64,000 nucleotides of DNA from an uncultured bacterium. GTDB lineage: Bacteria; Oederibacteriota; JAAXVQ01; JAUVAV01. The position numbers and the translations under genes are program-made. Location: contig CAVQBK010000003.1 in assembly GCA_963710755.1 (NCBI GenBank), positions 352,001 to 416,000 on the forward strand, written 5' to 3'. Numbering within the stretch: the stretch's first letter is position 1; each line of letters opens with the position of its first letter. Below the pieces are notes generated by a model that did not search any database, was not told where the DNA came from, and saw only the letters and a list, made by a program, of their open reading frames with translations. This document shows, in pieces, positions 22,258 to 64,000 of this stretch.

Positions 22258-22695
22258 CTATTGGGCGAAGTTGGGGATATGCATATCAAAATCGTTTAAA
22301 AATTCCTGAAAGGCTGATTTGGATGCCGGCGCAATGGCTGTGAATTCCACCCCGTAAGCATATTTGCTGCCAATAAAGGGCATCTGCCAGACAATACGGC
22401 CCTGAATGCTTACTTTAACTGTCTCACTTTCTTCCCACGTCATTTGGCTTAGATCGCCACGCCGCTTGTCCTGGGGTGGCAGATAAAGGGTCAAGTTAAG
22501 TTTATCGTCAGGACGCAATTCCAATTCACTGTAAAGCGCCAGCCCACTGGCACTGATATTCTGGGTTTGCGTGATTTTTTGTGAGCGCACAATATCTTCT
22601 CCGCATTTGGCTGCAAAGGTCAGGCTAAGACTGATGGGTTTGCGCGGGAACTGACGCCGTTCCGAAAACTCCTCGAAAATGGGAGGTTCACTCAT
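22258..22695 (-). CDS. PilZ-domain c-di-GMP receptor (tandem paralog)
   Basis: Likely start MSEPP at 22695 with RBS AGGAG. ERRQFPR, NISASG, YGVEF. Similar throughout to 21682-22131. Confidence 0.85.
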   Translation of the reverse strand: MSEPPIFEEFSERRQFPRKPISLSLTFAAKCGEDIVRSQKITQTQNISASGLALYSELELRPDDKLNLTLYLPPQDKRRGDLSQMTWEESETVKVSIQGRIVWQMPFIGSKYAYGVEFTAIAPASKSAFQEFLNDFDMHIPNFAQ

Positions 22696-22956
22696 GAAGT
22701 CACTCCTGTGAAAACTGGTACTGACGCCATGTTTAGTAACGGATAACCTTGTAAAATCATAAAAGAATTCCTGAGGCCAAGCATACGCTTCCTGGCCGCG
22801 CCTTGCGATTTCTGTAAATAGGTTTTCGCTCCACCAAGCCATCAAATTTCCTGCAGATGAATGGGAACGTAGTAAAAAACAACCAATTAAACTGTTACAA
22901 AATAGATCAGAGCAGAGGCAATATGCGGACAAACTGATTATTGCATAAGCCGGGAT

Positions 22957-22985
22957 TTGACCCGCATTTGGAATGACGGTATAGT
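22957..22985 (+). promoter_or_regulatory. Sigma70 promoter of the giant gene
   Basis: TTGACC-17 bp-TATAGT about 130 bp upstream of ATG 23114. Confidence 0.6.
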
Positions 22986-23113: not shown

Positions 23114-26100
23114 ATGACCATCAGGACCTTATTTAAACATCAGGCGTTACGTTTATTGGTAACCATCCTGCAGCTCTGTCTGCTGGCTCCTGATTATGCT
23201 TGGGCTTTGCATCCAGGCCAGTTTAGGGCGCGGCCCAACGAATTCATCTTCCACGGCAAGGCGATGATTATTCCGAGTCAATTTGGCCGGATTCAAAGCC
23301 AGGCGCTGGCGACCCGGCCCAAAGGGCTGGTGCTGCATATCGAAGATCTGCACTGTCACGCCGAGGTTCAGCAAAACATTGCCTCATTACTAAACTATCT
23401 GCAGGTCCATACCCGTCTGAGTCTGGTGGGGCTGGAAGGCGCCAGCGGGCCGGTACCCACCGATAAACTTAAAACCTTTCCACTTGCTCAGATCAGATCC
23501 CAACTCGGCGTCTATTTAATGCGACAAGGCCGCCTATCGGGCGCGGAATTATTTGCAACTTTAAGTTCAAATCATATTGAGTTGATGGGCATGGAGGATC
23601 AGACCAGCTATGACCGAAGTTATCAATTGGCGCTGAGTTTTTTAGACGAAGAAACAGCAGGGAGTCTATGGGATTTGCGCGCTTTGTTCAATGACCTCAA
23701 ACCACGAATTTATTCCAAACCGTTAATGGCTTTCGATCAGGGCAAGGAAGCTTTTGAACAAGGCCGGTGGCCTTTGATTAATTATTTAAAGCACCTCAAA
23801 CGCTTTGCCCGGGCGCAAGGCATGAAGGGTAAGGCTTTTACTCTTGTAAACGCTTATTTAAAATATGGTCAATCAAACTTCATTACCTCAGAAGACCTTC
23901 ATGAGGCTGCGTACGTTTTAGACCGGTCGCTTAGAAACAACCTTTATATAAATAATGAAGAAAAGGAGTTGGACGATAAGCTAAACCTGTTGGACCGGAT
24001 GGAAAAAGGACTGTCACTGAGCATGACGCCGCAGGAGTGGACGGCTTGGCAAACAGAAGGAAACGGGCTGAAGCAAATGGTCCGTTTTTTAGAGCATCAT
24101 CAAGTGGATGTGCAAATGCTGCTCGAGCCGGTGGCCGCGCTAGGAAAAAAAATCAAGGCTGTTCAAGCGTTTTACTATTTAGCGGATGAGCGAAGCCGGC
24201 AATTGGCGGATCATCTGACGATCCAAATGAAAAACCGCGGTCTGCCTTTGGCTGTGCTTGTCACTGGAGGATTTCATACAAGCGGGGTAAAACAACGGTT
24301 GATCAACCAGGGATATTCGGTAGTAACTATCCGTCCCAGAATCACCAAACAAGACCTGGTCAACCCTTACCTGGATAGGCTGCGCCATCATTATTCCCCT
24401 TTGGAAAAATTGCTGGCCCAGAATCAAAAAGCTCTGGCTCTTCCTCCCGGGCTGTTGCAGCCTGAGGTCAAAGATAAAATCGATGTGCTCTTTAAAGCTC
24501 TGCTTTGTTATCGCTATCGCCATCTTTTAGCTGAAGATGTTAACTTATTTTGGTCCCAACTGAGGAAAATGTTGGACACTTATCCTCATAACAATCACGC
24601 CATTCAACTAAATGCGTCGGGGGTTAAACTTCTTTCCGGGCAGGTTCTGCAAATTAATCTGTTAACCAAGATAAAAAAAATGTTTCTGACCGTAGGGGCA
24701 AGACAAGAGCAAGCCCAAGGTCGCGAACAGATGGATATTACCAATCGCATCAGCGTTACCTACTGGGATAAGGAGCCTGCCGAGGCTAGTCCGGGGTATC
24801 GGGCGGGGGAGAATAATAGGCGCCGGCGCTTTCACCACGCCAAAACCAAAGTCCTCACCGTGGCTAGGGGCTTAATGATAGCAACCATGAGTTGGTGGTC
24901 TCAGACCGTTTGGGGTAATCCATCGGGGTATCGCAAAATAGTGGCTTTGGAAGATGTGGTTTTCTCGCAAGAAATGTTGACCATCCTCGTGATCCTGTGG
25001 GTGGCTTTTGCCGGATTTTGGGCTGTAGTGGGCGTGGTGCACTGGATAATCAAGATTATTAAAAATGGGAAAAAGCAAAAAAACGCTCAACCGCCTGAGG
25101 CGTTTTATCCCGGCGTCACGTTGTCCCAAAAACTGGATAACTATTATGAACACCAGATTCATTCCAAATTAGACAAAAATCAAATCGACCTTTATGCCCT
25201 TTATCTTCTCTCGCTGGACCACACCAAAAGCACGACCCAGAACATGATCTTCCGTGAATTCCTTAATCGTGAAAATGGTCTTGATTATATGATTTTTAAA
25301 AAAGAGGCTATCATCGAGGCGGCACAACAGTTGGCGAGATCGACAGATTACCCCAAGGAAAAAATTATGGCCATTCCCAAGACCATCAGTAACGCCATTG
25401 ATGGAATTAAAAATCAATACCAAGTTGTACCCAAAGCCCTGGCCAAGTTGGTGCAGTACCATTTACCAGGTCTGATTGATTTATCGGCGTTTTTGTCCGG
25501 TCTGGCGGTAAAACAACAGCTGAAGTTTAAAAATGGCCAATTGGAAGCCTGGCAGGATTACGGGCTGGCCCAGCATAAGGCAGGTGTGGTCAACACACCG
25601 GCAGGTCCTTTGGTAAGTTTCCAATTTCCTTTTGATGAAGAGACCCATACTGGAAAAAGTGAACGGTTTTTTCAAGGCGCCTTAATTTCGCTGCTGCTCT
25701 TATCCATGGCTATGGTTACAGGCCTGTTCACCCCCACGCTACCGTCAGGTATGGTCTCACTGGTATCGCGTCATTTACCACTTTGGCTGGGGATAAAAGT
25801 GCTCAATTTATTTGTTTTGGTCCCACAGTTGATGTTGGCCGGTGTGGCTGCAGGCTTGCTACTTTTTATTTTGCATATGTGGGGACAGTATGCTCTTTTT
25901 TTACGATCAGGGCCAAGTGCGCCTTGGATAATCATGAGCAGTTCCTTATTGCAAGGTATGGCACTGGGTTTGGGCTCTTTCTCCACTTCCCGGACAAGGC
26001 AGCCTGGTGTTGGAAATAAGAAGCATCTTTTTTGGGGAAACCTGCATCAACTTGGTTTGATTGAATCGATTCGTAAAATGGCGAAAAAAATAAACCAACG

Positions 26101-29029
26101 AATCTTCCGTTTACCCAACCTAGCTATCTCCGAGATAAACTTTAATGACCATGAAGTTAAAAGAGGTCTTTTTAATACGGTCCGTCCTATCACTTATCAT
26201 GGTAAACGCTGTGCTTTGATAATGAGCCGTTTTTTTGATCTCAATGAAGACCTACCTGGATCGGATCGCGATACCCTGAAAGAACTCTTTAATATTGGCA
26301 GTCCTGCAGAAGCAAATGAATTGCTGGAATTAAAGCTAAAGCACATGACGCAAGTGCAAAAAGAACCCACTTTAAACGTTCATGACAAGCCCGGCCTTTT
26401 GGCCCTGGTCCACAATCAACAAGGTAAACTTATTGGCTACCTCAGCGAGTGGGTAGAAGGGGCTTCTTTGGAAGACCTGATTAAAACCGGACTTATTAGC
26501 GGCGCGGTCTTTGAAAAAACAATTGTAGAAGCCGAGGAGACCTTGGCGCATCTTCATAAACAAGGTCTCCTCCATGGTGATCCCACCATTAGCAATTGGA
26601 TGGTGCAGTTACAGGATCAGGAAGAAACAGAAGGTCGCTTTGTGGATTTGGGCCCCAACCTGCCAGGATGGACTATGGCCCAGGACAACAATATATTTAA
26701 AGATGATGTTTTGACTGGGCGCGGGGAACTATTATTTTTAGAGTTAGCTAGTCGTGCCGTAGCAGGCTGGCTGGAAAGTCTTAGTAGTGCCATGCTTTTA
26801 GCCAAACCTGAGGAACAACGCAAGTTGAGAGACCATCAACAAACCCTGTTGGCCACACTGCAAGAAAACGGGCTGAGCATGGACAATATTCTTAAAGTCT
26901 ACGCCTGGATTGGTGATTATAAGGACCAAGCACGCGATCAGAGTGGCCAGCATGGGCAGGCTCTAACCGATATTCCCGCATTTAAGGCGAAGTTTGAGGA
27001 AAAAGTTGAGCCGGTTCTGACGGCTCTTGAACAATTTCGAGAGCTGCTTTATGACCTACGGCAGCAACCCTTGACCTTCGGTTTATCACCTGTCGATGAG
27101 GTGGCCAAAGCCATGGCTGCAACTAAAGAAAAGCAGACGCCATCAGCCCCTGGCGCCATGATGGGCTGGTTGAAAACCCTGTATGTGAATAAGAAAATAA
27201 GCGCAGCCCATAAACAAAATAAATTTAGTCGTGAGAAGCAAGCGACTTTGAAGGACCATTACGAGCGGCACTATCAAGCCTGGGGCGCAGTGGTCTTAGA
27301 AATGCTACCGTTGGGATTAACGGCTGTATCGATTTTAGGAGCTGCGCTGATCGCTTGGATGACTGGTTTTTTACATCCTACCGCAGGATTATCTGATCTG
27401 CTGCGGTTGGTGCATGCCCTGACCTGGCTTAGCTTTCCTCTCTGGCATTTGGTCCCGGCGGATCATCGCGGCTGGCAAGCCTTGCGTCAAGGTCAATTTA
27501 AAAAAACATTTAAGCTTTTAACCAAGGCGGACAAAATGAATGCCGTCGTGGCCACTTTTTTCGCAGCAGCCATGGCTTTGCTCAGCTTTTCTTCAATGTC
27601 ATTATGGCTGATAGTCATTCTGGGGCAAGTATTCCATGAGATCATTAATCTGATCGGGTTTGTAATCAGATATGGCCCGTCCGGATTTAATACCCCAGGG
27701 CTCAAGAAGGGAATTAAATCTATTTTACAAACGGTTAAAAAAGGTTTTACCTGGCCGGGACGTTTATGGGCCAGCTTTTATGACCATGCTATTTTTTATC
27801 CATTAGAGTTCCGTCAGGTTAATAAAAATCAACCATCAGCGCAAGAGAAACAGCAACGCTGGCGTAACCTAACATCCTGGCACTTTTTCGTTTTGGCAGC
27901 TGTGCTGGTAATTTTGATGGTATTACGCAGCCAAAGCCATGCAGCAATAATGTCCCTATTTGATAACACCAAGATTTTTCAAGGGAGTTCAGGTTTGCTT
28001 TTCCCCCTACTGTTGGAGACCCTGGGCCTGGTGCGGGTAGCCCATCCCGAAACAGAACCAAAAGTGGTACTGGATAAATCTAAAGGCAACCTTAGCAGTA
28101 TCCCAGAAAGACAGGAGAACCGCAGCCGCTTATATGGCCGCTCGCGCAGCCGTCCGGCCTGGGAACCATTGCAACTCATTCGTTGGCCCCGCGTTATTTA
28201 CTTAGGCCTGCTCTGGGGGTTATTCCAGGTGGTTAATCGTGTCGTCGGACCATCTCGGCGATTAGGAGATAAGGCTTGGCCGCAACAGCGCTGGAATGAT
28301 CTACTCAGACAGTACTTTCCTGCCAATAGCCAGGAATCCGTTTACTTTAATCCGCTTCAGGTCAGGCGCGGAGCGTACACAGGACGAGGAGTGGATGATT
28401 TTTTGGGACAATACAGTACCACAGCAGAAGGAGAAGCCGAGCTAAATCTTCATCCTCAATTGGCGGCTGTGGTGCTTGCTTCGCCCCGCAATGACCGCTT
28501 AGGCCGTTTCCAACAACAACTGGGCCGCACGCTGGTACGCCAGCTGCTTTATTATCGCAGTGCTCAATTTTACGGCCAAACCTTGAGTCAACAGTGGCAA
28601 CAAGCGTGGCAGAATAAGGGCAGCTTCTTTAAACGCTATCAGGGCTGGCATTGGTTGGCAGGGTTTAACAATCCATCACTTCTTGAAGCCTATGGCATTG
28701 TCCTGCGATTACGCGGGATTGGATCACAAGCGTACTTTTACGAACAGTTATGTGATGTTTTGGAACAATCCATGGCCAGAGAAAAAAGCCCAGAGGACTT
28801 GGCCTCACTTGCCACGCTTTTGATAGCATTAGACTCACATGGGCCGGCGATTTATCAAATTTCTGATGTCCACAGCCAAACGGTTATCAGGGTACCGGCC
28901 GTGCTTTATAAGCAACGAAAGGACTTGGTTAGGCGTTTGCAAAACCTATTAAAGACTTGGCCATTAACGGAAACTCAAAAAAGAAAGCGCCACCGACGGC
29001 CCCAGGTGACTATCCATCAAGCAGCCTAA
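23114..29029 (+). CDS. Giant (1971 aa) multi-pass membrane protein with conserved exported N-terminal module and an internal protein-kinase-like domain
   Basis: Single ORF. Signal peptide ending AWA. Motifs IEDLHCHAEVQ, VGLEG, GRLSGAE, TGGFHT. Several TM clusters. Kinase-like segment around 26150-26750 (SEWVEGASL, LHKQGLLHGDPTISNWMV, RFVDLG). Confidence 0.85.
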   Translation: MTIRTLFKHQALRLLVTILQLCLLAPDYAWALHPGQFRARPNEFIFHGKAMIIPSQFGRIQSQALATRPKGLVLHIEDLHCHAEVQQNIASLLNYLQVHTRLSLVGLEGASGPVPTDKLKTFPLAQIRSQLGVYLMRQGRLSGAELFATLSSNHIELMGMEDQTSYDRSYQLALSFLDEETAGSLWDLRALFNDLKPRIYSKPLMAFDQGKEAFEQGRWPLINYLKHLKRFARAQGMKGKAFTLVNAYLKYGQSNFITSEDLHEAAYVLDRSLRNNLYINNEEKELDDKLNLLDRMEKGLSLSMTPQEWTAWQTEGNGLKQMVRFLEHHQVDVQMLLEPVAALGKKIKAVQAFYYLADERSRQLADHLTIQMKNRGLPLAVLVTGGFHTSGVKQRLINQGYSVVTIRPRITKQDLVNPYLDRLRHHYSPLEKLLAQNQKALALPPGLLQPEVKDKIDVLFKALLCYRYRHLLAEDVNLFWSQLRKMLDTYPHNNHAIQLNASGVKLLSGQVLQINLLTKIKKMFLTVGARQEQAQGREQMDITNRISVTYWDKEPAEASPGYRAGENNRRRRFHHAKTKVLTVARGLMIATMSWWSQTVWGNPSGYRKIVALEDVVFSQEMLTILVILWVAFAGFWAVVGVVHWIIKIIKNGKKQKNAQPPEAFYPGVTLSQKLDNYYEHQIHSKLDKNQIDLYALYLLSLDHTKSTTQNMIFREFLNRENGLDYMIFKKEAIIEAAQQLARSTDYPKEKIMAIPKTISNAIDGIKNQYQVVPKALAKLVQYHLPGLIDLSAFLSGLAVKQQLKFKNGQLEAWQDYGLAQHKAGVVNTPAGPLVSFQFPFDEETHTGKSERFFQGALISLLLLSMAMVTGLFTPTLPSGMVSLVSRHLPLWLGIKVLNLFVLVPQLMLAGVAAGLLLFILHMWGQYALFLRSGPSAPWIIMSSSLLQGMALGLGSFSTSRTRQPGVGNKKHLFWGNLHQLGLIESIRKMAKKINQRIFRLPNLAISEINFNDHEVKRGLFNTVRPITYHGKRCALIMSRFFDLNEDLPGSDRDTLKELFNIGSPAEANELLELKLKHMTQVQKEPTLNVHDKPGLLALVHNQQGKLIGYLSEWVEGASLEDLIKTGLISGAVFEKTIVEAEETLAHLHKQGLLHGDPTISNWMVQLQDQEETEGRFVDLGPNLPGWTMAQDNNIFKDDVLTGRGELLFLELASRAVAGWLESLSSAMLLAKPEEQRKLRDHQQTLLATLQENGLSMDNILKVYAWIGDYKDQARDQSGQHGQALTDIPAFKAKFEEKVEPVLTALEQFRELLYDLRQQPLTFGLSPVDEVAKAMAATKEKQTPSAPGAMMGWLKTLYVNKKISAAHKQNKFSREKQATLKDHYERHYQAWGAVVLEMLPLGLTAVSILGAALIAWMTGFLHPTAGLSDLLRLVHALTWLSFPLWHLVPADHRGWQALRQGQFKKTFKLLTKADKMNAVVATFFAAAMALLSFSSMSLWLIVILGQVFHEIINLIGFVIRYGPSGFNTPGLKKGIKSILQTVKKGFTWPGRLWASFYDHAIFYPLEFRQVNKNQPSAQEKQQRWRNLTSWHFFVLAAVLVILMVLRSQSHAAIMSLFDNTKIFQGSSGLLFPLLLETLGLVRVAHPETEPKVVLDKSKGNLSSIPERQENRSRLYGRSRSRPAWEPLQLIRWPRVIYLGLLWGLFQVVNRVVGPSRRLGDKAWPQQRWNDLLRQYFPANSQESVYFNPLQVRRGAYTGRGVDDFLGQYSTTAEGEAELNLHPQLAAVVLASPRNDRLGRFQQQLGRTLVRQLLYYRSAQFYGQTLSQQWQQAWQNKGSFFKRYQGWHWLAGFNNPSLLEAYGIVLRLRGIGSQAYFYEQLCDVLEQSMAREKSPEDLASLATLLIALDSHGPAIYQISDVHSQTVIRVPAVLYKQRKDLVRRLQNLLKTWPLTETQKRKRHRRPQVTIHQAA

Positions 29030-29160: not shown

Positions 29161-29415
29161 TTATTCAGCTGGAGCCGTTTCTTCCACTTTCTTAACTTCC
29201 TTTACTTTTTTAACTTTTTTCTTGGTCCCTTTTTTATGTTTTTTAACTTTTTTCTTGGTTTTCTTTTCTACCTTTATCTTTTCTTTTTTAGCGGGCGCAG
29301 CTGCAGTGGTTTGATCAGCAGCAGCGGCAGCTTCTTCTTCAGCCACCGCATAGGCAGCCAAAGACATGCCAAACATTATAGCCAATACGAGTGCTAGAAA
29401 CTTTTTCATGTGCAT
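29161..29415 (-). CDS. Small exported Lys-rich protein
   Basis: RBS AAGGAGA, MHMKKFLALVLAIMFGMSLAAYAVA signal peptide, then KKEKIKVEKKTKKKVKKHKKG. Confidence 0.75.
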   Translation of the reverse strand: MHMKKFLALVLAIMFGMSLAAYAVAEEEAAAAADQTTAAAPAKKEKIKVEKKTKKKVKKHKKGTKKKVKKVKEVKKVEETAPAE

Positions 29416-29781
29416 GGTCTCCTTAAGACGAGTTTTGCCGGCCCATATATTAAAAGCAATTGCCGCGCCAATCCAGACATGACCTTTTTTTTTATATAAA
29501 CACTTAATAAACAATCCTTTTTTTAAGAGGGTACTATAAACCGGTTCCACTCAAGTTCAAGTTATGTGACCATTTGCCGCAAGCCAAGCAAAAATGCCAC
29601 AACATCATTGTCTTGGCAGAATATCTGTCCTGCAAAAAGAGGAGGCCACGGGAGTCATGGAATCACCGCAAAGGAAAGGTGTGTGGTGGCTTAACAAAAG
29701 ATGCTGGCTTTTGGCCGTACTGGTTAGGTTATCAGGTTGAGGATGGTCCCAACTGTAAACCAACCGGGAGCATAACTTTTT

Positions 29782-30684
29782 TTAACGTACGGAATCACGG
29801 CCCAGGAGCATGTCCCCAAGGATGGACAAATAGTCTCCAAGGGAGATGACTACCGACCCTTCGGGCAGAGGCAGCCGGCCTGGGAAGGGGCGGCCATAAA
29901 TCCTGGTTTGGGTATGATGCAAGACGTGTTCCTGAGCATCATGATGGGTCATCCATAAAAAGAGTTTTTCCAGCCAGGTGTGGGCGCGCAGGTTTCTGGT
30001 TTTGATATTGCGCTGTTGCCAGTCACCTTCCACATAAAGGTTGCCGTGTTCTACCAGCTGGGAGTGGTGAAGCAGCATGGAGCCAAGGCCATAAGTCAAC
30101 GCATAAGGAATGAGGATTTGTACCACCGTGGCCTGAAAGAGGAAATGGCTAAGCAGACCCAAGCTGGTGAAGATTACTGCGGTCACCAGCACTGTAAGCA
30201 AGGTCTGACTCAACCGGAATTTGGCTGCATAGCGGGGATGGCGGGGAATGGCGATGAGGGACATGAGCAACACAAAGCCCACCCCCAAGGTGATTTCCAG
30301 AAATTGATAAACCATGCGGCCAAAGCGGTTATTGATTCTACCGAGCGGATGGAATTCCCGGTCATCATAAGTATTGACCTCGGCATGATGATGGCCATGG
30401 AGCAGACGGTAAATCTGGGGATCAGTAAGCAGCAGATAAGCGAAGATTTGGTAGAAAAAAAGATTAGGCACGTTGGGCACATACTTATGCCAGGCTTCGT
30501 GCATCAAATAGCCCATCCAGGTAAAAAAATAAAGTCCAGGAAAAAGGACCAACCCCAAGCTGGGCCAACCCCAGGCAGCATAAGCCCCGGGTAGGAGCAG
30601 TAAATATAAACACCAGCCCGTCAACACCAGATAATAATTGCGGGCCTGGCGCTGAATTTCTTCAGAAGTAATGGTCTCCATCAT
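29782..30684 (-). CDS. Membrane fatty acid desaturase family protein
   Basis: Three His boxes HEAWH, HGHHH, HVLHH plus TM segments. Confidence 0.85.
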   Translation of the reverse strand: MMETITSEEIQRQARNYYLVLTGWCLYLLLLPGAYAAWGWPSLGLVLFPGLYFFTWMGYLMHEAWHKYVPNVPNLFFYQIFAYLLLTDPQIYRLLHGHHHAEVNTYDDREFHPLGRINNRFGRMVYQFLEITLGVGFVLLMSLIAIPRHPRYAAKFRLSQTLLTVLVTAVIFTSLGLLSHFLFQATVVQILIPYALTYGLGSMLLHHSQLVEHGNLYVEGDWQQRNIKTRNLRAHTWLEKLFLWMTHHDAQEHVLHHTQTRIYGRPFPGRLPLPEGSVVISLGDYLSILGDMLLGRDSVR

Positions 30685-31340: not shown

Positions 31341-32075
31341 TCAAAGGTGCAGCTGGTCAATTTTATTGAGCATGGCCTGGTAATGACTGCCTTGCCAGTA
31401 GACATGACCGCATTGGCGGCATTGAAAGAAGTGATGCTGCTGTGAGCGGATGCGCGGCGGCACCAGGGGGTGGACCAGAGAGGGTTTGACCATGGAGATA
31501 AGACCATTACACTTTAGGCAGCGGGTAAAGGGGCGCAGGCACCGGGTCAAGTGGTAGCGCCTGGCCACAGCTCGCACTTGTTGAATAGGAGCGGTGGTGC
31601 GCAAACAGTAGCCCAGGCGCACCTGATGGTATTTGAGAATGCCGCGATCACGAGTGAGGATAATGCGCTGTTGTTCCACAGCCAGAGTTACGATATCTTT
31701 GTCCGGAAATTGAGCCCGGTAAAGACAATCAAATCCAAGCAGGCGCAAGGTTTTGGCCAGTTTACCCAGATGGCCATCGAGTACAAACGCCGGTGAGGGA
31801 GGAATGGCAGGCCAGAGCGCCGGGTGGGGGTAGAGATTGGGTGTGAAGGGCGGATACACCTGGATGACATCATGCGGATGCAAGCGGTGGCTGAAATCAA
31901 CCCACTGCTTGTTGATCATAATACCATTAATTTCCGTATGAGGAATGCCGGCTGCTTCTACGGTATCCTTGACAGCAGGCGATCCCAGTATGGTTATGGT
32001 GAAAAAACGGTAGCGCTGCCCAGGTCGTATGAAATAATTCAAATCCCTATAAAAACGCAGGCGTACTGTGGTCAT
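31341..32075 (-). CDS. Mut7-C RNase (PIN) protein with N-terminal ubiquitin-like domain
   Basis: VKDTVEAAGIPHTE, FVLDGHLGKLAKTLRLLGFD, LTRDR, RCLKCNG, CRQCGHVYWQGSH. Confidence 0.88.
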   Translation of the reverse strand: MTTVRLRFYRDLNYFIRPGQRYRFFTITILGSPAVKDTVEAAGIPHTEINGIMINKQWVDFSHRLHPHDVIQVYPPFTPNLYPHPALWPAIPPSPAFVLDGHLGKLAKTLRLLGFDCLYRAQFPDKDIVTLAVEQQRIILTRDRGILKYHQVRLGYCLRTTAPIQQVRAVARRYHLTRCLRPFTRCLKCNGLISMVKPSLVHPLVPPRIRSQQHHFFQCRQCGHVYWQGSHYQAMLNKIDQLHL

Positions 32076-57619: not shown

Positions 57620-60600
57620 ATGAACAAAAATCATTTTAAAAATGTCTTGCGCCTGACGGTTATGCTGCTTCTTTACAGCCTTCTTGCGCCTTCCTTTATT
57701 TGGGCCTTTAATCCGGTCAATTTGGCCACCGGACCTAATGTCATCAAGCTGGGCCGGCAGACCATTGACATCCCCCGGAAATGGGGTGCTATTCAGTCGG
57801 TCCGGATTGACGACCCCAGCCGGCCGCTGGTGGTGCTCATAGAAGATTTGCACTGTCATGCCGAGGTCCAGCAACATATTGCCGGGCTATTGGATCATCT
57901 CCGTCAACAAGGGTTGGCTCTGGTGGGATTGGAAGGTACCAGCCGGACCGTGACCGTGGACAAGCTCAGGACATTTCCCCTTCAAGCCATCAAGGCCCAG
58001 GTCGGGCGTTATCTGGTCAGGCAAGGCCGCCTCAGTGGGGCGGAACTGGCCGCCAGTCTCAGTGCTCAGCCGCTGCAGCTCCAAGGCATGGAAAATCAGG
58101 ACAGTTATGACCGCAGCTACCACCTGGCCATGAGTTTTTTAACTAATGAAACCCTGGGTTATGTCTGGGATGTGCGCGAACAGCTCAACAACCTCAAAGC
58201 CAAAGTATACCATGAGCCGCTGCTGGTTTTTGACAAAGGGCGGGAGGCGTTTAAGGCAGGCCGATGGCCATTGCGCAAGTATGGCGTCTATCTGTTACAG
58301 CAGTGCGGCGTGCATCACATTGATACCACAGGCCTGAGCGGGCTTAAGGCTTATTTGCGCCCCCTGCCCGACGCGTCCCTAAATCAGGATGACGTGCAGC
58401 CTGACCTTGCGAAGGCGGAACAGCTGATCCGGGAGCGCCTGTATAACAGCCCCGATGAGCGGCGCTTGGATCAGCAGGTGCACACCCTTGATGAAATGGA
58501 AAAATTGCTGAGCATCAGCATGAGCCCGGAAGAATGGGCCAACTGGGACGCAGCGGGCAGGGGCATTGAGGGGATCAGCGCTTATTTGGGTGATCAAGGG
58601 GCCTTGAACGGTTCACTTTTGGAGGCGGTTCAGGTCTTGAAGGAGCGTTGCCAGGCTGCCCGGGATTTTTACCGTCTGGCCTGCCAACGCAGCCGCCAGC
58701 TGGCCTTAAACATGATCCGGGCCATGCAGGCCGGACATCAGCCCCTGGCTGCTTTAATTACGGGCGGGTTTCACACCGCCCAAATTCAGCAGGCGCTAAA
58801 GGCCCGGGCGGTTAATGTGGTCACCATCCGGCCGCGCCTCACCCGGGTGGATTTGGTCAATCCCTATTGGGATATTCTCAAAGGGAAATGCACGCCCTTG
58901 GAGCGGCTTTTGGCGCAGAATCAAAAAGCCCTGGCCGTGAAGCCGGGCCTGCTGCTGCCTGAACTGCGCGACGAAATGGACGTGCTGCTCAAAGCATTGC
59001 TGGCCTTTGAGTTCAAAGGGTTGCTTAAAAAAAACATTATTCAGTTCAAAGCCAGGATTCAATCAGTGCTGAGAACTTACCCGGCCAATAATCAAGCCAT
59101 ACAATTTGATCCGGCTCACGTCAGGACCTTGCGCGCCCGCCTATTGTCCCTGCCTTTTACATTAAAAGCAAAATCTTTCTTTGTCACTGTGGGGGAACAA
59201 ACAAAAGCCCTTAAAGCCAGGGAAGTCATGTCCATCGATGGGCGGCATACGGTAAGTTATTATGACCGGAAGCCGGAAATAGCCCCCGAGCAAGCACGGC
59301 TGCTGTTTATGGCCGTACGCTGGGCAACTTATGCGATGGTGTCCCATCAATCAGTCCTGACCCAGCGAGCGTTGACCCATATGACCGGCCTGTTTGGTCT
59401 GGGATTTAACCTCAATCTGGTGGAAAGGCGGAAAAAAAGTATCCCCCATCTCCTGGCCTGGCTGAAAGCGTCAATAAACAGCTTCCTTACGAATTCCAAG
59501 ACCAATCTAAACGCGTCCTTAAATAAGGCATGGGACTTTATCAAGTGGTTACCTTCCAATGAACCAAAGGCTGTTACCATGCGCCGAACCCTGTTTATTT
59601 GGGGTGGCGTGGCTTTGATAGTAGTCCTTTTAACGGTATGGATCATGTTTAATATAAATCGGGATGGCTTTAGTTTCCTTATCAGGTCCGGGTATGAGCT
59701 CAAAACGCACCCCTGGTGGGCCATGCTGCCCATGGGGTTGGGGATGGCGGGATCCGCGAACCTATCAAGTAGGGAGCTTAGTCTGCCCAAAACGAGAGAA
59801 ACTCCTGAGACGTGGCTCTCCCAAGGCGATAGGCATAATCCCTTCTTGTTGGACCATCTTATACCGCTGTGGAACAGCCAAGATCATCCTGGTTCCAAAA
59901 ATGAGTTCATGGCTTTAATCAACTTATATAAGTCCATCCCAGAACCATTACGTATTGCAGCTGAAGAAGGGTTGAACACAGCAGCGACTTACCCTTTCGC
60001 AAGTTTCAAGGAACGTTGCCACCGGCTGCTGGAAGCTTGCCAAATCATTTCACCTGAGGTTTTGGCCGCCTATCTCAAAAAATCCACGCAAGGGGCTTCA
60101 GGATCGCTTTATGTCATGGAAACTAATGGTACCGTCATTCCGATGATTAGCGTGGCCAAGAAGCTAGGCGAGCGTCTGGCCGGGAACCATCAACGGCAAT
60201 TTATTGAAAAGATAGTTCTCCCTACCTGTGGGTTGGTGGACGGAAGCAGAGCTGATCTTGAGGCTGCCTTTCGAGAATATCAGCACTGGCCAGCACACGA
60301 TCAACAAGCTTGGGAACAAGCTCTGGCCGCAGACCGTATCCCCGCTTTCAAAGTCGCGGGCAGGTTTCTGTATAAGGATAATATCCCCAATCAAATGCGG
60401 TTTTATTTGGCCAAGCATCAAAGCGGCCAACAACCGGGGCAGTATCCCGAGCAAACGGCAGTCCTAAAAATCATTACGGCGTTACCGGCAGCGCCGTATG
60501 TCCAAGCCACACTATTCGCTTATTGGCAGCAGATGAAAAAAGTTTGGCGTCCGGCCTATGCGACCTTGTTAAGGTTACCTGCTGTTTCGCATTATTTCAG

Positions 60601-63600
60601 AGATGTGCAAACTTCTGGTATGGCCTACGGCGATTTGTCCTTGGTGCTGGTAATGGATTATATTCTTCGTTATGACATCGAGCAGCCCAATGCAGTTCAT
60701 CGCTTGTTAACCAAGGCCCGCGAAAACAAGAAACTAAAAAATTATATCCAACGCAGACTTCTGTTGCCCGGGTTTGCGCTCCATGCTCCAAAAATTCTTG
60801 CCACTGATCATGTTGAATCTCCGACAGCCTGAGGACCTGGCGGTGACCAAGCAAATCTATCCGGAGCTGATGGACCATAACAGGCATGCCGTCGGAACTT
60901 ATGGAATGGCCGGCTTTTTGAGAAAACTAACCATTCTACTCGCGAGCTTACTCAGGGCCAACCAGCAAGAACTTATTTCAGATGGAGGGTGGAAGTTCCT
61001 GACGGAAGAATATGTTCCACGCTTTGGTTTTAACAGCAATACCTGGTTGATTCAAATGGCCTTTGATCTGTACCGGGTACAAACAGTGAAGGACGAGTCC
61101 CTGCAGATCTATCATCCCGAACAAATGGGGTTATCCGCCGCAGGCCGGGCAGGTCTGAACCAATTGGCGGCTATGTATCAAGCCGACCGACAAGAGTTAT
61201 ATTCGCGGCGGCAAATTGATCCTAAAAAAATCAGCAGCCCTCTTTATTGCGCCATGGCGGCCTATGAAACAGGATTTTCCACCGCCACTTGGGGGCATGG
61301 TTCTCACTATCACCTTGATTTCAAGAATTATGTCAGCAAGCATATGCAGCAAGATCATTTAACACGAGGCCTGGCAGTAACCTTGGGTCAACAATACCCG
61401 CTAAGCAGAAAGGGCAATGATGCATTTGATAAAGACAGCCAGAAAAAGGGTGTACTGCATGCTTCTTTCAGCCGTTATTGGCTGCCCCTGGCAGCGGATT
61501 TGGGGAATGCCTGTTATTCCTGGATCATTTATTTTGAAGATAAGAAAAGTGTTTTGGGTACTGTGGTCTATACTGAAGGCGAAGGTAGGGAAGAGCATTT
61601 CAGCGGGTCTACACTGATTTTGGAAAACAGGATAAAAGGCAAAAAAACCTGGATTTTGCGTGCGGTTAACCCTTCCACCGAGCTTTGTGAAACCTATCAT
61701 GATCAGGATATATTCCGTGCAGTGCTGGATTATACGGTGAAATTGGCGGAAAAATATAATCTGGAAAATCCGGGAGAAGCAGTGGAGGTGCTGGTGGCGC
61801 CTTTTGATAAGAGCCTCCCAGAATCCTTCAGCCGCCGGCCGGCCATGGTCAAAACCTTGCAACAATGGTTTGGCACAGCCCGGGACGTGACCCTTGATCA
61901 AAAAGAGAAGTTTAACAAAATGGACATCACTAACAGTTGCCGGGTAATTGCCGAACGTGGCCAGGACGGGCACTTCATCTACAGCCAGGAGGCGTTCAAC
62001 CGCCAAGGGATAAAGCACAGCGCTGCCACCATGACCGCCACCAAGGTGCTGCGAAGCCATGCCCTCGCCGGTCCGGCGGCCTGGCTGGTCAGGCACTGGG
62101 GCGCTTGGGGCATTGCCCTGGTGGAAGAGTTTGGCCTGGGGACCGGCAATAGTCAGATTAACAAAGACAAGTTTGCTCAACTTAGAGCGCAAGTCTTGAC
62201 GCCTTGGCAGGCCCTGCAGCGCGGCCGCTGGCTGCCGGCCGTAATGGTTGGGCTGACCTATGCATTCTGGATGCAGTTGGATTTTGGAGTGTATATACTC
62301 GTTCCCCTGGCCATCGTCATGGCCGGATGGCCGGCCAAAGGGCAATGGGCTTTTGTGACTGGCCATGACCAAGGCACCCGCCAACAATGGGCAGCGCGAA
62401 TCATGGCCATGTTGTTTTTCAACCTCATTTCCTTGTCCCTCAGTACCACCCTCCTGACGATTTTATTATCCTTCAATCCAGGCGGTATTCCGTTTGTGCT
62501 CATGGCCGTGTTCGCGAGCAGTATGGCCGGTACGTTGACTGCAACCATGGGTCATATTAAATGGAACAGTCGAGCATCTATAAAGAACCTCATCACCAAA
62601 GCAGGCCGTCTCAATTGGAGAACGCTGTTGCTTTGGAGCAGCACCGTGCTGATCATCCTGCTGGTCGCTACGATGGTTTTACCCTATAACGGCATGGACC
62701 AAGCGATGCTTTTAAAACCGGGCAACATGGGAGGCCAATCGCTTTGGGGAGGGATGTTGCCCGCCGGACCGGGCATGAGCGCCATGCCGCCAACTGCCGA
62801 AGAATTCCTAGTAATGAGCCTTTTACAAGCCGGCGTAGCCGGACTATTTTTTGCAGTTATCAGTTATTTTTTATTTAAGTGGCTGGATAGAAATGAAGAT
62901 CCACAGAAGAAGGGGGAGATAGATGAATCCCTTAAAAAGACTTTAATTAATGAAGTAACCAGAATAGCGAAGCAATACCGGGGCCAGGAAGTGGCGATAG
63001 TGCCTTTTCTACAGGGATTTATGAAAAGGAATTATAAAAACACTATGGCCACCCCGGAGCAATTATTGTCTGTTCAGGATCAATTAATCAAAGAGCACAT
63101 CATCACCTCCAAATCAGCCTCGATTCAACAGTTAGGCACGGGAGAGCAAGATGAGCAACAAGCAGCACGTTTGGAAAAAAGAGTCCAGGGGTGGTTGTTC
63201 CTCTTCCTGTTGGTGTTGTTCTTCCATATCACGGTCGACTATAATCCACCTCTGTTGATTTTGAGCACGATGTATCATATGAGTATAGCCATGCTGTATC
63301 TCGGGCTTTTGGCGGCATTTGTTTATGATGATGCCAGGCAGGCGGTGTTAAGGAACGAGTTCAATGGCTGGCATGAACTTTTCATCAGCGGTGTTTCCTA
63401 TTTGATGGGGCGCCGGTCCGCGGGCACACGGGCGGCGCTGATGAGCGCGGTTGATGATCAGTCGCTTCCCGTCAAAACAGGAAAAAACAACAACTCAACA
63501 TGGCAGCGCTGGTGGCCATGGCTGCTGATTGGAGGGGCGGGGATGCTGGGGCTGTGGATTTGGCTGTCGCAGGACAGCAGCGCGGGTCAGGCGCTGGGCT

Positions 63601-64000
63601 TGGCCCCCCTGGGAGATCAACCCAAGGGATGGCTTGGCTTGGCGGCAGGGCTGGCGATGGTCGCGGGGATGATCGTGGCCGCGGGGCTGAGCCTGTTTTG
63701 GTTGATCAAATGGCTGTCGCAAAGACCGTGGTGGCAAGATTGGTTACAACGCTTGGGCTCGAGCCTGCACGCCCTGACGGAACACATGCTTCCCAAACCT
63801 GCCAAGAACGATTCATCACAGAAGAGCAGGGAGGTGGAGCAGACCAGAGAAAAGCAAAGGCGTCAAAGAGTGATGTTGTGGATTGGGTTTGGACTGCTGA
63901 TCGTGATCATCCTGATGAGTTTAAACCTTAATTCCGGCGAGGGGCCTTTGAACTTGAGTATGCTCAAACCCCTTGTGAACGACAAAATCCTGACCGCCAG
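57620..64000 (+). CDS. Giant multi-pass membrane protein, paralog of 23114-29029; one frameshift near 60790; runs off the window (about 2120 aa or more)
   Basis: ORF 57620-60832 shares IEDLHCHAEVQ, VGLEG, GRLSGAE, TGGFHT and LLAQNQKALA with the first giant. The +1 frame is open from 60738 to 64000 by hand translation (FLPLIMLNLRQPEDL...WILRAVNPS...many TMs) and is missing from the ORF track because it has no stop. Confidence 0.8.

What the first reader, a model, noticed from the sequence alone, without database searches (positions are those of the whole stretch)
23114..29029. Family of giant modular membrane proteins: constant exported N-terminal module plus variable cargo
Seen: this 1971-aa protein and the one at 57620 onward align closely for about 550 aa (signal peptide, IEDLHCHAEVQQ.IA.LL, LVGLEG, FPL..I..Q.G.YL.RQGRLSGAE, GME.Q.SYDRSY, TGGFHT, DLVNPY, LLAQNQKALA..PGL, to TYWDKEP/SYYDRKP). 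After that they show no evident similarity, each becoming soluble domains separated by TM clusters. Known: constant-carrier/variable-payload layouts typify polymorphic toxin and effector systems, and giant genes are reported from some candidate-phylum bacteria, but this N-module matches no delivery domain I recognise. Inference: a poorly described effector or polyprotein system in which the N-module drives export or processing of interchangeable membrane-tethered cargos. No adjacent immunity-like gene is visible. This is the best candidate for a new system in the window.
Basis: partly seen in the sequence, partly recalled or inferred. Interest (0 to 1): 0.85.

Follow-up and report, generated by a model that had tools for sequence, protein, structure and literature searches.

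The report
Giant membrane enzymes sharing exported hydrolase-like head
About thirty very long membrane proteins in this uncultured bacterium all begin with the same exported, hydrolase-like head domain and then carry different, reshuffled sets of ordinary cell-interior enzymes, which points to a large unannotated family of membrane-tethered enzyme arrays and not to a toxin delivery system.

Summary
P0001 (23114-29029, 1971 aa) and P0002 (57620-60832) share 44% identity over 549 aa. The same N-module heads 31 ORFs of 0.6-9.5 kaa in this 3.44-Mb genome, 7.0% of its bases, and 7,153 protein clusters in public data. It matches no Pfam or NCBIfam model.

The module is a Sec-type signal peptide followed by a ~520-aa domain. 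Its AlphaFold model (pLDDT 86.9) matches only erythromycin-esterase/ChaN/TIKI-superfamily structures at the top of two independent fold searches. The D-x-H...E...R...GGxH set is invariant or nearly so.

Tails carry cytoplasm-type enzymes between transmembrane clusters: PPDK-like, GH77, amylase, NUDIX, HD, kinases. P0001 holds a protein-kinase fold.

At the orthologous locus of a close relative, the head is 89% identical and similarity stops dead at residue ~600, so tails are exchanged by recombination.

No toxin, trafficking or immunity features were found. The closest described things are the 'Archaeovorin'/multi-enzyme giants of Omnitrophota, whose N-terminal regions are reported to generally lack identifiable domains. 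The head's substrate and any self-processing role remain inferred.

The parts
22957..22985 (+). sigma-70-like promoter match (TTGACC-17-TATAGT, 10 of 12) about 130 nt upstream of the P0001 start
   Evidence: a consensus match only
23114..29029 (+). P0001, 1971-aa gene: signal peptide, exported head, TM, soluble domains separated by two TM clusters
23114..23206 (+). residues 1-31: Sec-type signal peptide (K/R n-region, ~14-residue hydrophobic core, P at -6, A-W-A before L32)
   Evidence: the same layout is seen in the 31 paralogues, and canonical signal peptides occur in distant relatives. No dedicated predictor was available
23210..24448 (+). residues 33-445: core of the N-module, an alpha/beta domain of the Ere/ChaN/TIKI superfamily with a long helical insertion (about 163-375)
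   Evidence: AF2 model pLDDT 86.9; fold searches
23345..23353 (+). D78-L79-H80, first catalytic-type motif (consensus IQDLHC)
   Evidence: D78 and H80 are at least 90% conserved in 47 sequences. In 40 wider relatives H80 is 40/40 and D78 39/40
23435..23437 (+). E108 (consensus xEGa), 28 residues after H80
   Evidence: invariant in 47/47 and 40/40. Bcr135 H85-E113 and RRSP H3902-E3930 have the same spacing (PMC6254334)
24191..24193 (+). R360 (AD.RS / .RD motif)
   Evidence: invariant in 47/47 and 40/40
24266..24280 (+). G385-G386-F-H388-T (GGFHT), second catalytic-type histidine
   Evidence: G385, G386 and H388 are invariant. The GG[FY]H motif is present in 40/40 relatives
24449..24793 (+). residues 446-560: helical plus small beta subdomain that ends the module
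   Evidence: The profile covers it in most relatives. It gave no convincing fold match of its own
24977..25063 (+). residues 622-650: first transmembrane helix after the head; 0 K/R in the 15 residues before it and 5 after it
25064..25663 (+). residues 651-850: soluble domain of unknown family
   Evidence: no Pfam or NCBIfam match; no relative within this genome
25676..25903 (+). residues 855-930: TM cluster A (2-3 hydrophobic segments)
26108..26740 (+). residues ~999-1209: protein-kinase-like domain (HGD....N at 1154-1161, VDLG after it)
   Evidence: weak Pkinase/Bud32 matches below cut-off. The core of the AF2 model has pLDDT ~80. Foldseek gave at least 500 PDB matches at E<=1e-3; nearly all 47 rows displayed are protein kinases or pseudokinases. 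H, HGD and N are invariant in 9 aligned sequences
27302..27928 (+). residues 1397-1605: TM cluster B (about 4 hydrophobic segments); residues 1385-1516 recur in giant ORFs of related genomes
28091..29026 (+). residues 1660-1971: C-terminal domain of unknown family, shared with the end of the ORF downstream of P0002 and with giant ORFs of related genomes
   Evidence: no usable Atlas hit
57620..60832 (+). P0002, 1070-aa ORF: sister head (44% identical to P0001 over 549 aa) plus about 470 aa of tail
59410..59430 (+). head/tail recombination breakpoint. DNA is 90% identical to locus L044 from 57620 to 59422 and unalignable after that, while the upstream MscS-like gene is syntenic (83%)
60738..60832 (+). 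overlap of the P0002 frame with the +1 frame of the next giant ORF; holds an A6 run at its start
   Evidence: It is undecided whether this is a sequencing error, a real frameshift or two genes
60774..64000 (+). first 1075 codons of a 3630-aa ORF (runs about 7.7 kb past the window end) with many TM segments; probably the continuation of P0002

Best explanation
P0001 and its about 30 paralogues are inner-membrane proteins built on one plan.

The plan:
- A cleavable Sec signal peptide exports a ~520-residue head into the periplasm.
- The head is a previously unannotated family of the erythromycin-esterase/ChaN/TraB/TIKI superfamily. It keeps that superfamily's catalytic-type His-Glu pair, second His and Arg, so it is most likely an active hydrolase (peptidase or esterase).
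- A stop-transfer helix follows the head.
- The rest of the chain is a long tail of nucleotide-dependent, cytoplasm-type enzymes and kinases, stapled to the membrane at intervals by clusters of transmembrane helices.

The head is the constant part and does the same job in every copy. Tails are assembled from a shared pool of domains. They are exchanged by recombination at the head/tail boundary and by block insertions and deletions.

Shown here: family size, head conservation, fold class, motif conservation, signal-peptide-like N-termini, enzyme content of the tails, the kinase fold in P0001, and the sharp recombination break.

Inferred: periplasmic location, catalytic activity, and the head's role. 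My preferred reading of that role (about 1 in 3 given the plan) is a cis-acting, membrane-tethered maturation hydrolase that acts on the protein's own periplasmic loops or on a common envelope substrate, as the exported TIKI and PrgY proteases do.

The confidence given is for the plan, not for that last step.
For: Family:
- 31 ORFs carry the module, always at the N-terminus. They total 80,562 aa, or 7.0% of the genome.
- Public data hold 7,153 clusters at E<=1e-3. The module starts within the first 108 residues in 150 of 150 listed proteins. Of the 148 listed proteins other than P0001 and P0002, the median length is 2299 aa and 17 are >=5000 aa.

Fold:
- The AF2 model has pLDDT 86.9 and pTM 0.82.
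- The six best Foldseek PDB rows are EreC (6xcq, 6xcs) and the B. cereus Ere-like proteins 3b55, 2rad and 2qgm (best E 1.8e-3, probability 0.96).
- PMC6254334 names PMT, HopBA1, Bcr135 and ChaN as TIKI-superfamily matches of RRSP, with a 2His/2Glu catalytic motif (passages).

Motif:
- E108, R360 and H388 are invariant in 47/47 sequences; D78 and H80 are at least 90% conserved.
- In 40 wider relatives, including records named Omnitrophota and Elusimicrobiota, H80, E108, R360 and H388 are 40/40 and D78 is 39/40.
- The H80-E108 spacing of 28 equals that of Bcr135 H85-E113 and RRSP H3902-E3930.

Export:
- In the paralogues with a complete N-terminus, there is a K/R n-region, a ~14-residue hydrophobic core and P-x-[VI]-[ST]-W-[AS] followed by F-[ED].
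- Distant relatives have ordinary, unrelated signal peptides ending in A-x-A-type sites.

Tails:
- 15 of 31 paralogues have Pfam hits at E<=1e-3: PPDK_N/PEP-utilizers, GH77, alpha-amylase, TreT/GT1, NTP_transferase, HD, NUDIX, GNAT, LMWPc, cytidylate kinase, GGDEF, transglutaminase and AAA.
- Relatives add GAPDH, hexokinase, adenylate kinase, polyphosphate kinase, starch synthase and glycogen phosphorylase.
- P0001 has a kinase fold.
- In one paralogue a cytidylate kinase directly follows the first TM helix.

Shuffling:
- One search finds little tail similarity between paralogues.
- P0001 tail domains recur in other giant ORFs of 7 of 10 same-family genomes.
- L044 is 89% identical to P0002 over residues 1-588 and then shows nothing, although its ORF runs on for another ~970 aa.
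Against: - No sequence or profile method links the head to Ere, ChaN or TraB. A profile against PDB sequences found nothing. No consistent Pfam hit appeared in 47 members at E<=10. PF01963 found nothing in the genome, and PF04187 gave one match at E 0.12.
- I could not superpose residues, so the equivalence of H80/E108/H388 with the Ere/RRSP catalytic residues rests on order, spacing and alignment ranges.
- Some superfamily members are not enzymes (ChaN binds haem; PMT lacks the motif).
- No signal-peptide or topology predictor was available. My charge count around the first TM helix is not decisive (43 K/R before against 51 after, summed over 27 paralogues).
- Several members are split by overlapping frames, so some copies may be decaying.
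- Nothing here shows expression, cleavage or activity.
Confidence: 0.62

Rival explanations
1. Sensor reading. The exported head is a ligand-binding ectodomain (ChaN-like, not catalytic), and each protein is a transmembrane receptor whose cytoplasmic enzymes, kinases, phosphatases and cyclases are its outputs.
Against: Sensor ectodomains that feed 30 different outputs would be expected to diversify at the pocket. Here the His/Glu/Arg/His set is invariant from close paralogues to Omnitrophota and Elusimicrobiota relatives. Most tail domains are bulk metabolic enzymes, and multi-kiloresidue tails with repeated TM clusters are unlike known receptors.
Confidence: 0.15
2. Polymorphic toxin or effector system. 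The head is a delivery or processing module, and the variable tails are payloads used against competitors or hosts.
For: The architecture is constant-N, variable-C in many copies. There is an abrupt loss of similarity right after an 89%-identical head at a syntenic locus of a close relative. RRSP, PMT and HopBA1, which are domains of toxins or effectors, share the head's fold class.
Against: No Pfam or NCBIfam match to any trafficking or toxin domain was found in 31 paralogues. Tails hold housekeeping-type, ATP/NTP-dependent enzymes and repeated TM clusters that would keep them in the producer's own membrane. There is no co-oriented gene after P0001; the next ORFs are on the other strand. Heads of paralogues are only 24-42% identical, unlike the near-identical constant regions of CDI/Rhs-type loci (recalled).
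Confidence: 0.06
3. Cytoplasmic head. The N-terminal hydrophobic stretch is not a cleaved signal peptide, and the Ere-like head is an intracellular esterase or hydrolase fused to the enzyme tail, as Ere esterases are cytoplasmic (recalled).
For: In several paralogues, including P0002, K/R residues lie on the head side of the first TM helix. P0001 has an RRRR..K.K patch at 568-578, between the head and the membrane segment.
Against: The N-termini have a positive n-region, a short (~14 residue) hydrophobic core, a helix breaker at -6 and small residues at -3/-1. Distant relatives have sequence-unrelated but canonical signal peptides at the same place. In P0001 the K/R count is 0 before and 5 after the TM helix. 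A single TM helix lies between the head and a cytidylate kinase in one paralogue.
Confidence: 0.1

Closest known systems
Erythromycin esterase / ChaN / TraB-PrgY / TIKI superfamily (EreC 6xcq and 6xcs; B. cereus Ere-like proteins 3b55, 2rad and 2qgm; ChaN 2g5g; HopBA1 5t09; RRSP 5w6l)
   Same: They share the alpha/beta core fold with a helical insertion. The conserved residues come in the same order: acidic-x-His, Glu 28 residues later, Arg, then Gly-x-x-His (motif and spacing from PMC6254334). The signal peptide + domain + TM helix layout is the one I recall for vertebrate TIKI1/2 and for enterococcal PrgY (recalled, not checked here).
   Different: There is no detectable sequence or profile similarity to any described family of the superfamily. 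The head is about twice the size, with a ~210-residue helical insertion and an extra 110-residue subdomain. Asp replaces the first Glu. It is always fused to multi-kiloresidue enzyme tails, and it occurs in tens of copies per genome.
'Archaeovorin'-type giant proteins and 'multi-enzyme metabolic cluster' giants of Omnitrophota (West-Roberts et al. 2023, bioRxiv 10.1101/2023.11.21.568195, outline, section 7 and passages read; Nielsen & Lui 2026, bioRxiv 10.64898/2026.06.07.730766, outline, sections 8-9 and passages read)
   Same: Both have an N-terminal signal peptide, many TM helices spread along the chain, and the same kinds of enzyme domains: glycosyltransferases, glycoside hydrolases, methyltransferases, NUDIX, HD, GNAT, HAD, PPDK_N and GGDEF. 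[quoted passage not shown] Records named Omnitrophota carry this head.
   Different: Those studies concern proteins of >=10,000 or >30,000 aa in Omnitrophota. These are 0.6-9.5 kaa here and up to 13.7 kaa in relatives. The genome's nearest public relatives are titled FCPU426, Goldiibacteriota and Firestonebacteria. No SecA-like domain was reported at E<=1e-3 in the 31 paralogues. Neither text mentions erythromycin esterase or a shared head; TraB is absent from the one text queried for it, and ChaN gave only a reference-list author-name match there. Their supplements were not seen.
Polymorphic toxin loci (CDI CdiA, Rhs, MafB and similar; features recalled)
   Same: Both have a constant N-terminal part and variable C-terminal parts, many copies, and a sharp recombination junction between close relatives.
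   Different: There are no trafficking, toxin or immunity components. Payloads are membrane-threaded metabolic enzymes, and the constant parts of paralogues have diverged anciently.

Membership tests
TIKI / Ere / ChaN / TraB superfamily (fold level) | alpha/beta domain with a parallel beta-sheet core flanked by helices, superposable on solved members | tested here: met
   [not shown]
TIKI / Ere / ChaN / TraB superfamily (fold level) | catalytic 2His/2Glu-type motif with a His-Glu pair (Bcr135 H85-E113; RRSP E3900, H3902, E3930, H4030; PMC6254334) | tested here: met
   D78-x-H80, E108 and H388 are present. E108 and H388 are 47/47, and D78 and H80 at least 90%. In wider relatives H80, E108 and H388 are 40/40 and D78 is 39/40. 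The H-to-E spacing is 28, as in Bcr135 and RRSP. Asp stands where RRSP has the first Glu.
Pfam families Erythro_esteras (PF05139), Cofac_haem_bdg (PF04187), TraB_PrgY_gumN (PF01963) | score over the family's curated cut-off | tested here: not met
   P0001 and P0002 gave no match at E<=1. Among 47 heads at E<=10, none of the three is among the 25 families listed. A PF01963 search of the whole genome gave 0 matches at E<=10. PF04187 gave one match at E 0.12, 12.5 bits, under the cut-off, on the GGFH region of one paralogue. PF05139 was not searched on its own over the genome.
Polymorphic toxin systems | N-terminal trafficking domain of a known secretion route and a C-terminal toxin domain | tested here: not met
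   Pfam scans of all 31 paralogues plus the ORF downstream of P0002, and an NCBIfam scan of P0001, P0002 and that ORF, gave only metabolic or signalling enzyme domains or nothing. PADLOC and toxin-specific libraries were not scanned.
Polymorphic toxin systems | immunity gene directly downstream, co-oriented | tested here: not met
   After P0001 the next ORFs of 40 aa or more with plausible features lie on the opposite strand: a 129-aa lysine-rich ORF at 29161-29550 and a fatty-acid desaturase at 29782-30684.
Polymorphic toxin systems | conserved N-part with an abrupt junction to unrelated C-parts between close relatives | tested here: met
   P0002 against L044: 90% DNA identity over 1803 nt, then no alignment, with a syntenic upstream gene. 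Two further pairs lose similarity after the head.
Archaeovorin / multi-enzyme giant proteins of Omnitrophota | numerous TM helices along the chain plus glycosyl-transferase/hydrolase, methyltransferase, NUDIX-type enzyme domains | tested here: met
   A hydrophobicity scan found 0-39 segments per paralogue and 10 in P0001. P0001 itself shows only a kinase fold.
Archaeovorin / multi-enzyme giant proteins of Omnitrophota | length >30,000 aa (West-Roberts) or >=10,000 aa (Nielsen & Lui) and Omnitrophota origin | tested here: not met
   P0001 is 1971 aa and the longest paralogue is 9465 aa. Same-order relatives reach 13,678 aa. The nearest public records are titled FCPU426, Goldiibacteriota and Firestonebacteria.
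Archaeovorin / multi-enzyme giant proteins of Omnitrophota | divergent SecA DEAD-like domain (reported in most giants) | tested here: not met
   No SecA family appears among the Pfam matches at E<=1e-3 in the 31 paralogues. Weaker or very divergent copies are not excluded.

The most novel reading that the evidence does not exclude
The heads are cis-acting periplasmic maturation proteases. Each giant gene would be a membrane-threaded polyprotein whose TM clusters expose loops to its own tethered TIKI-like head. The head would cut the chain into separate membrane-anchored enzymes. This would be a bacterial, envelope-side counterpart of viral polyprotein processing, used by several candidate phyla to build membrane-bound metabolic arrays. 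It would explain why every giant gene carries its own copy of one invariant catalytic head, and why heads work with unrelated, freely exchanged tails.
Probability: 0.2. Interest if true: 0.9.

Novelty: new variant of a known kind. Interest (0 to 1): 0.68.

Why it matters
Giant, membrane-threaded multi-enzyme proteins are a recently recognised and unexplained feature of Omnitrophota and neighbouring candidate phyla. The preprints I read describe their N-terminal regions as generally lacking identifiable domains.

This work adds three things:
- One conserved, exported head marks thousands of such proteins, from about 1 to over 13 kaa, across FCPU426/Goldiibacteriota/Firestonebacteria-type genomes, with more distant copies in Omnitrophota and Elusimicrobiota. 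That gives a handle for finding and classifying them.
- The fold class and invariant catalytic-type residues yield a concrete, testable hypothesis: a tethered periplasmic hydrolase, possibly a self-processing one.
- The sharp head/tail recombination break shows how the tails diversify.

The family takes up 7% of this genome, so it is central to the organism's biology. The head is also a new, large branch of the TIKI/Ere superfamily that is missing from Pfam and NCBIfam.

Tried and rejected
- Sequence routes to a known family for the head all failed: phmmer and a 47-sequence profile against PDB sequences, Pfam and NCBIfam, and genome searches with PF01963 and PF04187.
- The ESM Atlas returned only unnamed Omnitrophota clusters for the head, and nothing usable for the C-terminal domain.
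- Homodimer prediction of the head (residues 33-450, two copies) gave 'no answer'. This is not evidence either way.
- Sequencing runs: no RNA holder was listed. Four DNA contig runs held small shares (0.18 or less). No contig covered 60538-60971, so the P0002/P0003 frame junction could not be checked.
- Relatives did not settle the junction. The tail parts of P0002 and P0003 have at best weak partial matches in 1 of 14 other same-order genomes.
- The positive-inside count around the first TM helix was inconclusive (43 against 51).
- Iterated HMMs of P0001's tail pieces found no further copies in this genome, except the C-terminal domain in the ORF downstream of P0002.
- A recurring ~160-aa two-TM module was found in only 3 paralogues, so no general 'linker' or cleavage-site motif emerged.
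- Earlier notes of this scan on the same genome concern other loci and did not bear on this one.
- Literature searches for a described link between this head and giant proteins found none (in-text searches). Supplements of the two preprints are closed and may list domains that I could not see.
Full report
**1. The observation**

The window holds a 1971-aa ORF at 23114-29029 (P0001) and a 1070-aa ORF at 57620-60832 (P0002). BLASTP aligns residues 12-560 with 10-556 at 44% identity (244/549, E 9e-143). This is far beyond chance.

Two corrections apply.

- P0002 is followed by a 3630-aa ORF in the +1 frame. It overlaps P0002's end at 60738/60774-60832, a stretch that begins at an A6 run, and it continues past the window.
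- That ORF ends with a domain homologous to the C-terminal domain of P0001. P0001 residues 1668-1825 match its residues 3316-3475 at 42% identity (E 1e-24), and one search gives 34% over about 300 aa. One search finds this domain only in these two proteins in the genome.

The two loci are therefore sisters that share a head and a C-terminal end but differ in the middle. P0002 plus the next ORF is probably one unit of about 4.7 kaa. Whether the frame change is real could not be decided.

In the same genome four other family members, among them the two other shortest chromosomal ones (1156 and 1311 aa), are likewise followed by overlapping same-strand ORFs.

**2. Size of the family**

The window lies in a 3.44-Mb, 13-contig genome that is 98% complete.

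- The 559-aa N-module finds 33 places in it. These correspond to 31 ORFs of 619-9465 aa, and the module is at the N-terminus in every one.
- Together they hold 80,562 codons, which is 7.0% of the genome. ORFs of 1000 aa or more make up 18.6% of it.
- Two members sit on 9-kb contigs. One of them has a head identical to a chromosomal copy, so 29-31 genes are distinct.
- Several lie in tandem or in same-strand clusters.

In a library of 1.84 billion representative proteins the module has 7,153 matches at E<=1e-3, 4,726 at 1e-10 and 340 at 1e-30. In all 150 listed proteins it starts within the first 108 residues. Of the 148 listed proteins other than P0001 and P0002, the median length is 2299 aa, 90 are >=2000 aa and 17 are >=5000 aa, although many are cut by contig ends.

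Taxonomic range:

- A pattern scan of species-representative genomes gave 278 confirmed relatives. The 80 kept come from records titled candidate division FCPU426, Candidatus Goldiibacteriota, Candidatus Firestonebacteria or 'uncultured bacterium'.
- Within the genome's own phylum, as held by the tool, 16 of 99 genomes match. These are G000, 10 of 10 others in its family, 4 of 4 in a second family of the same order, and 1 of 84 elsewhere (a weak match, E 1.7e-5). ORFs behind the head reach 13,678 aa.
- More distant copies carry source names of Omnitrophota and Elusimicrobiota. A profile of the module matches all 40 proteins at E 1e-39 to 1e-207.

**3. What the head is**

No Pfam or NCBIfam model matches it, and no PDB sequence does. 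An alignment of 47 heads (29 from this genome, 18 short database proteins) shows:

- invariant E108, G139, G143, G159, G183, R360, G385, G386 and H388;
- nearly invariant D78, H80, C81, Q86, N417, P418 and Y419.

AlphaFold2 on this alignment gives a confident model (mean pLDDT 86.9, pTM 0.82). It has a beta/alpha core at 43-160 and 379-408, interrupted by a helical insertion of about 210 residues, and is followed by a helical plus beta subdomain at 450-551.

Three fold searches agree:

- Foldseek against the PDB ranks EreC (6xcq, 6xcs) and the B. cereus Ere-like proteins 3b55, 2rad and 2qgm in its first six rows (best E 1.8e-3, probability 0.96).

These are the proteins that the RRSP structure paper names as the TIKI superfamily. 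That paper describes a catalytic 2His/2Glu motif whose core is a His-Glu pair (Bcr135 H85-E113; RRSP H3902-E3930) (PMC6254334, passages).

The head has D78-x-H80, E108 exactly 28 residues later, R360 and GGFH388. In the 40 wider relatives H80, E108, R360 and H388 are present in 40/40 and D78 in 39/40.

I conclude that the head is a new, unannotated family of the Ere/ChaN/TraB/TIKI superfamily with an intact catalytic-type site. The caveats:

- No profile method confirms the link. The only hint is a PF04187 match at E 0.12 on the GGFH region of one paralogue.
- I could not superpose residues.

**4. Where the head sits**

In the paralogues whose ORF has a complete N-terminus, the head is preceded by a K/R-rich stretch, a hydrophobic core of about 14 residues, a proline at -6, and [ST]-W-[AS] followed by F-[ED]. 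This is the pattern of a signal peptidase I substrate (established knowledge of Sec signal peptides).

Distant relatives with complete N-termini have sequence-unrelated but canonical signal peptides at the same position. Nearly all paralogues then have a strong hydrophobic segment 100-250 residues after the conserved core. In P0001 this segment has 0 K/R before it and 5 after it. In one paralogue a cytidylate kinase follows directly.

Summed over 27 paralogues, the charge bias is not decisive (43 against 51), and I had no dedicated predictor. I put the periplasmic location at about 85%.

**5. The tails**

- 15 of 31 paralogues have Pfam matches at E<=1e-3 behind the head. These are PPDK_N with the PEP-utilizers mobile domain (in 5), GH77, alpha-amylase, TreT/GT1, NTP_transferase, HD (2), NUDIX, GNAT, LMW phosphatase, cytidylate kinase, GGDEF, transglutaminase and AAA. 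One below-cut-off M50 peptidase match lies in a TM cluster. The other 16 have none.
- Relatives add methyltransferases, HAD, SIS, UDPGP, glycogen phosphorylase, GH13 debranching enzymes, GAPDH, hexokinase, adenylate kinase, polyphosphate kinase, starch synthase, UDP-glucose dehydrogenase, HATPase and receiver domains (precomputed Pfam).

These are ATP-, NTP-, NAD- or acetyl-CoA-dependent enzymes that work in the cytoplasm (established biochemistry).

In P0001 itself, residues ~1000-1210 gave weak Pkinase/Bud32 matches. They carry invariant HGD....N in an alignment with eight tail segments from related genomes. They fold, with core pLDDT about 80, into a protein-kinase-like domain: Foldseek gave at least 500 PDB matches at E<=1e-3, and nearly all 47 rows displayed are protein kinases or pseudokinases.

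The remaining parts of P0001 are of unknown family:

- a soluble domain at 651-850;
- two TM clusters;
- the C-terminal domain at 1660-1971.

The kinase-like domain, TM cluster B and the C-terminal domain recur, in other orders and contexts, inside giant ORFs of 7 of 10 other genomes of the family.

**6. How the tails vary**

Tails of paralogues mostly share no BLAST similarity. Heads of different paralogues are old: 24-42% identical to P0001's.

I built a tree of 109 heads. It held 29 from G000 and 80 relatives; two G000 heads with internal deletions were left out by my length filter. Different G000 heads lie 1.56 substitutions per site or more apart, apart from one near-duplicate trio. Seven have a much closer partner (0.10-0.77) in another genome.

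At such orthologous loci I compared head and tail (10 comparisons for 9 relatives' loci).

- P0002 against locus L044. The upstream MscS-like gene is syntenic (83% DNA identity). The head region is 90% identical over 1803 nt (89% over protein residues 1-588). At window position ~59422 the similarity ends completely, although the L044 ORF continues for about 970 more codons.
- Two further pairs lose similarity just after the head, with 230 and 686 further codons' worth of locus available. For these I did not check that the ORF stays open.
- Two pairs stay collinear. One of them has a ~410-aa block present only in G000.
- One pair lacks a counterpart for ~1170 aa.
- Four comparisons were uninformative because the locus ended.

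Tails are therefore remodelled by replacement at the head/tail boundary and by block gain or loss, while heads are kept.

**7. Context**

P0001 has a promoter-like site 130 nt upstream. A divergent PilZ-domain gene lies before it. After it lie only opposite-strand ORFs: a 129-aa lysine-rich ORF and a fatty-acid desaturase. Nothing resembles an immunity gene or a secretion apparatus dedicated to it. The window shows a diderm envelope: OMP beta-barrels, a TolC-like protein and T9SS-type sorting tails.

**8. Mechanism**

The best-supported plan is: signal peptide, periplasmic Ere/TIKI-like hydrolase head, stop-transfer helix, then a cytoplasmic enzyme tail repeatedly stapled to the membrane.

Each of about 30 genes keeps its own copy of an invariant catalytic-type head. 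Heads also tolerate wholesale tail exchange. Together these argue for a generic function tied to each polypeptide, and against a tail-specific one.

I favour a tethered periplasmic hydrolase acting in cis on exposed loops, or on a common envelope substrate. This is by analogy with exported TIKI and PrgY (recalled), and with the N-terminal C39/S8 peptidase domains that West-Roberts et al. suggest may cleave Omnitrophota giants (section 7). This last step is inference only.

The rivals are a non-catalytic sensor ectodomain, a cytoplasmic head, and a polymorphic toxin system. They are weighed in their own sections. The toxin reading fails on payload type, membrane retention, and the lack of trafficking, toxin and immunity parts. 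It does share the recombination signature.

**9. Comparison with what is known, and novelty**

Membrane-threaded giants with mixed sugar-metabolism, methyltransferase, NUDIX, HD, GNAT and signalling domains and N-terminal signal peptides are described for Omnitrophota:

- West-Roberts et al. 2023: outline, section 7 and passages read.
- Nielsen & Lui 2026: outline, sections 8-9 and passages read.

The first of these states that the N-terminal regions generally lack identifiable domains. Text searches of both found no mention of erythromycin esterase or a shared head; TraB was absent from the one queried for it, and ChaN gave only a reference-list author-name match there. Library searches found no paper linking this superfamily to giant proteins. 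I could not see the supplements.

The present family is thus a variant of a known kind. It has the same building logic at smaller size and occurs in other candidate phyla. What is new: the common head, its fold class with an intact catalytic motif, its per-genome expansion (7% of the genome), and a documented head/tail recombination break.

Noticed in passing
window 60738-60832 (and G000 contigs C1, C3, C13): Five family members are followed by a large same-strand ORF that overlaps their end by 59-182 nt. For P0002 the shift is +1, and an A6 run sits at the start of the overlap. These could be homopolymer sequencing errors, decaying genes or programmed frameshifts.
   Followed up: partly
whole genome G000: 112 ORFs of 1000 aa or more cover 18.6% of the genome. 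Several giants lack the head, for example 8125 aa on C4:21455-45832 and 6804 aa at the start of C1. What heads those was not examined.
   Followed up: no
G000 contigs C11 and C12 against C4:146591-150532: Two 9-kb contigs carry near-copies (63-100% protein identity) of one family member and its surroundings. This could be an assembly variant, strain heterogeneity or a recent duplication.
   Followed up: partly
window 36074-39559 (-) and 46845-48464 (-): Two proteins have T9SS-type C-terminal sorting domains. One is an 1161-aa gingipain-like C25 peptidase with fn3 and Ig-like domains. This suggests a type IX secretion system in this lineage.
   Followed up: no
window 629-2131 (+): A response regulator is fused to GAF and HD-GYP-type (HD_5) domains. 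A PilZ-domain gene lies at 22258-22932 (-), next to P0001, and one paralogue tail carries GGDEF. Cyclic-di-GMP signalling may surround the family.
   Followed up: no
window 31341-32075 (-): A Mut7-C RNase domain is fused to an N-terminal ubiquitin-like domain (Ub-Mut7C).
   Followed up: no
window 29161-29550 (-): A small ORF has a signal-peptide-like start (from an internal Met) and a very lysine-rich, low-complexity tail. It lies between P0001 and the desaturase gene.
   Followed up: no
[not shown]
   Followed up: no
G000 C5:106014-114461, C2:20337-32525, C13:249404-256249: A ~160-aa module with two hydrophobic helices recurs four times in three paralogues, twice in one protein. This hints that TM clusters are themselves mobile building blocks.
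   Followed up: partly
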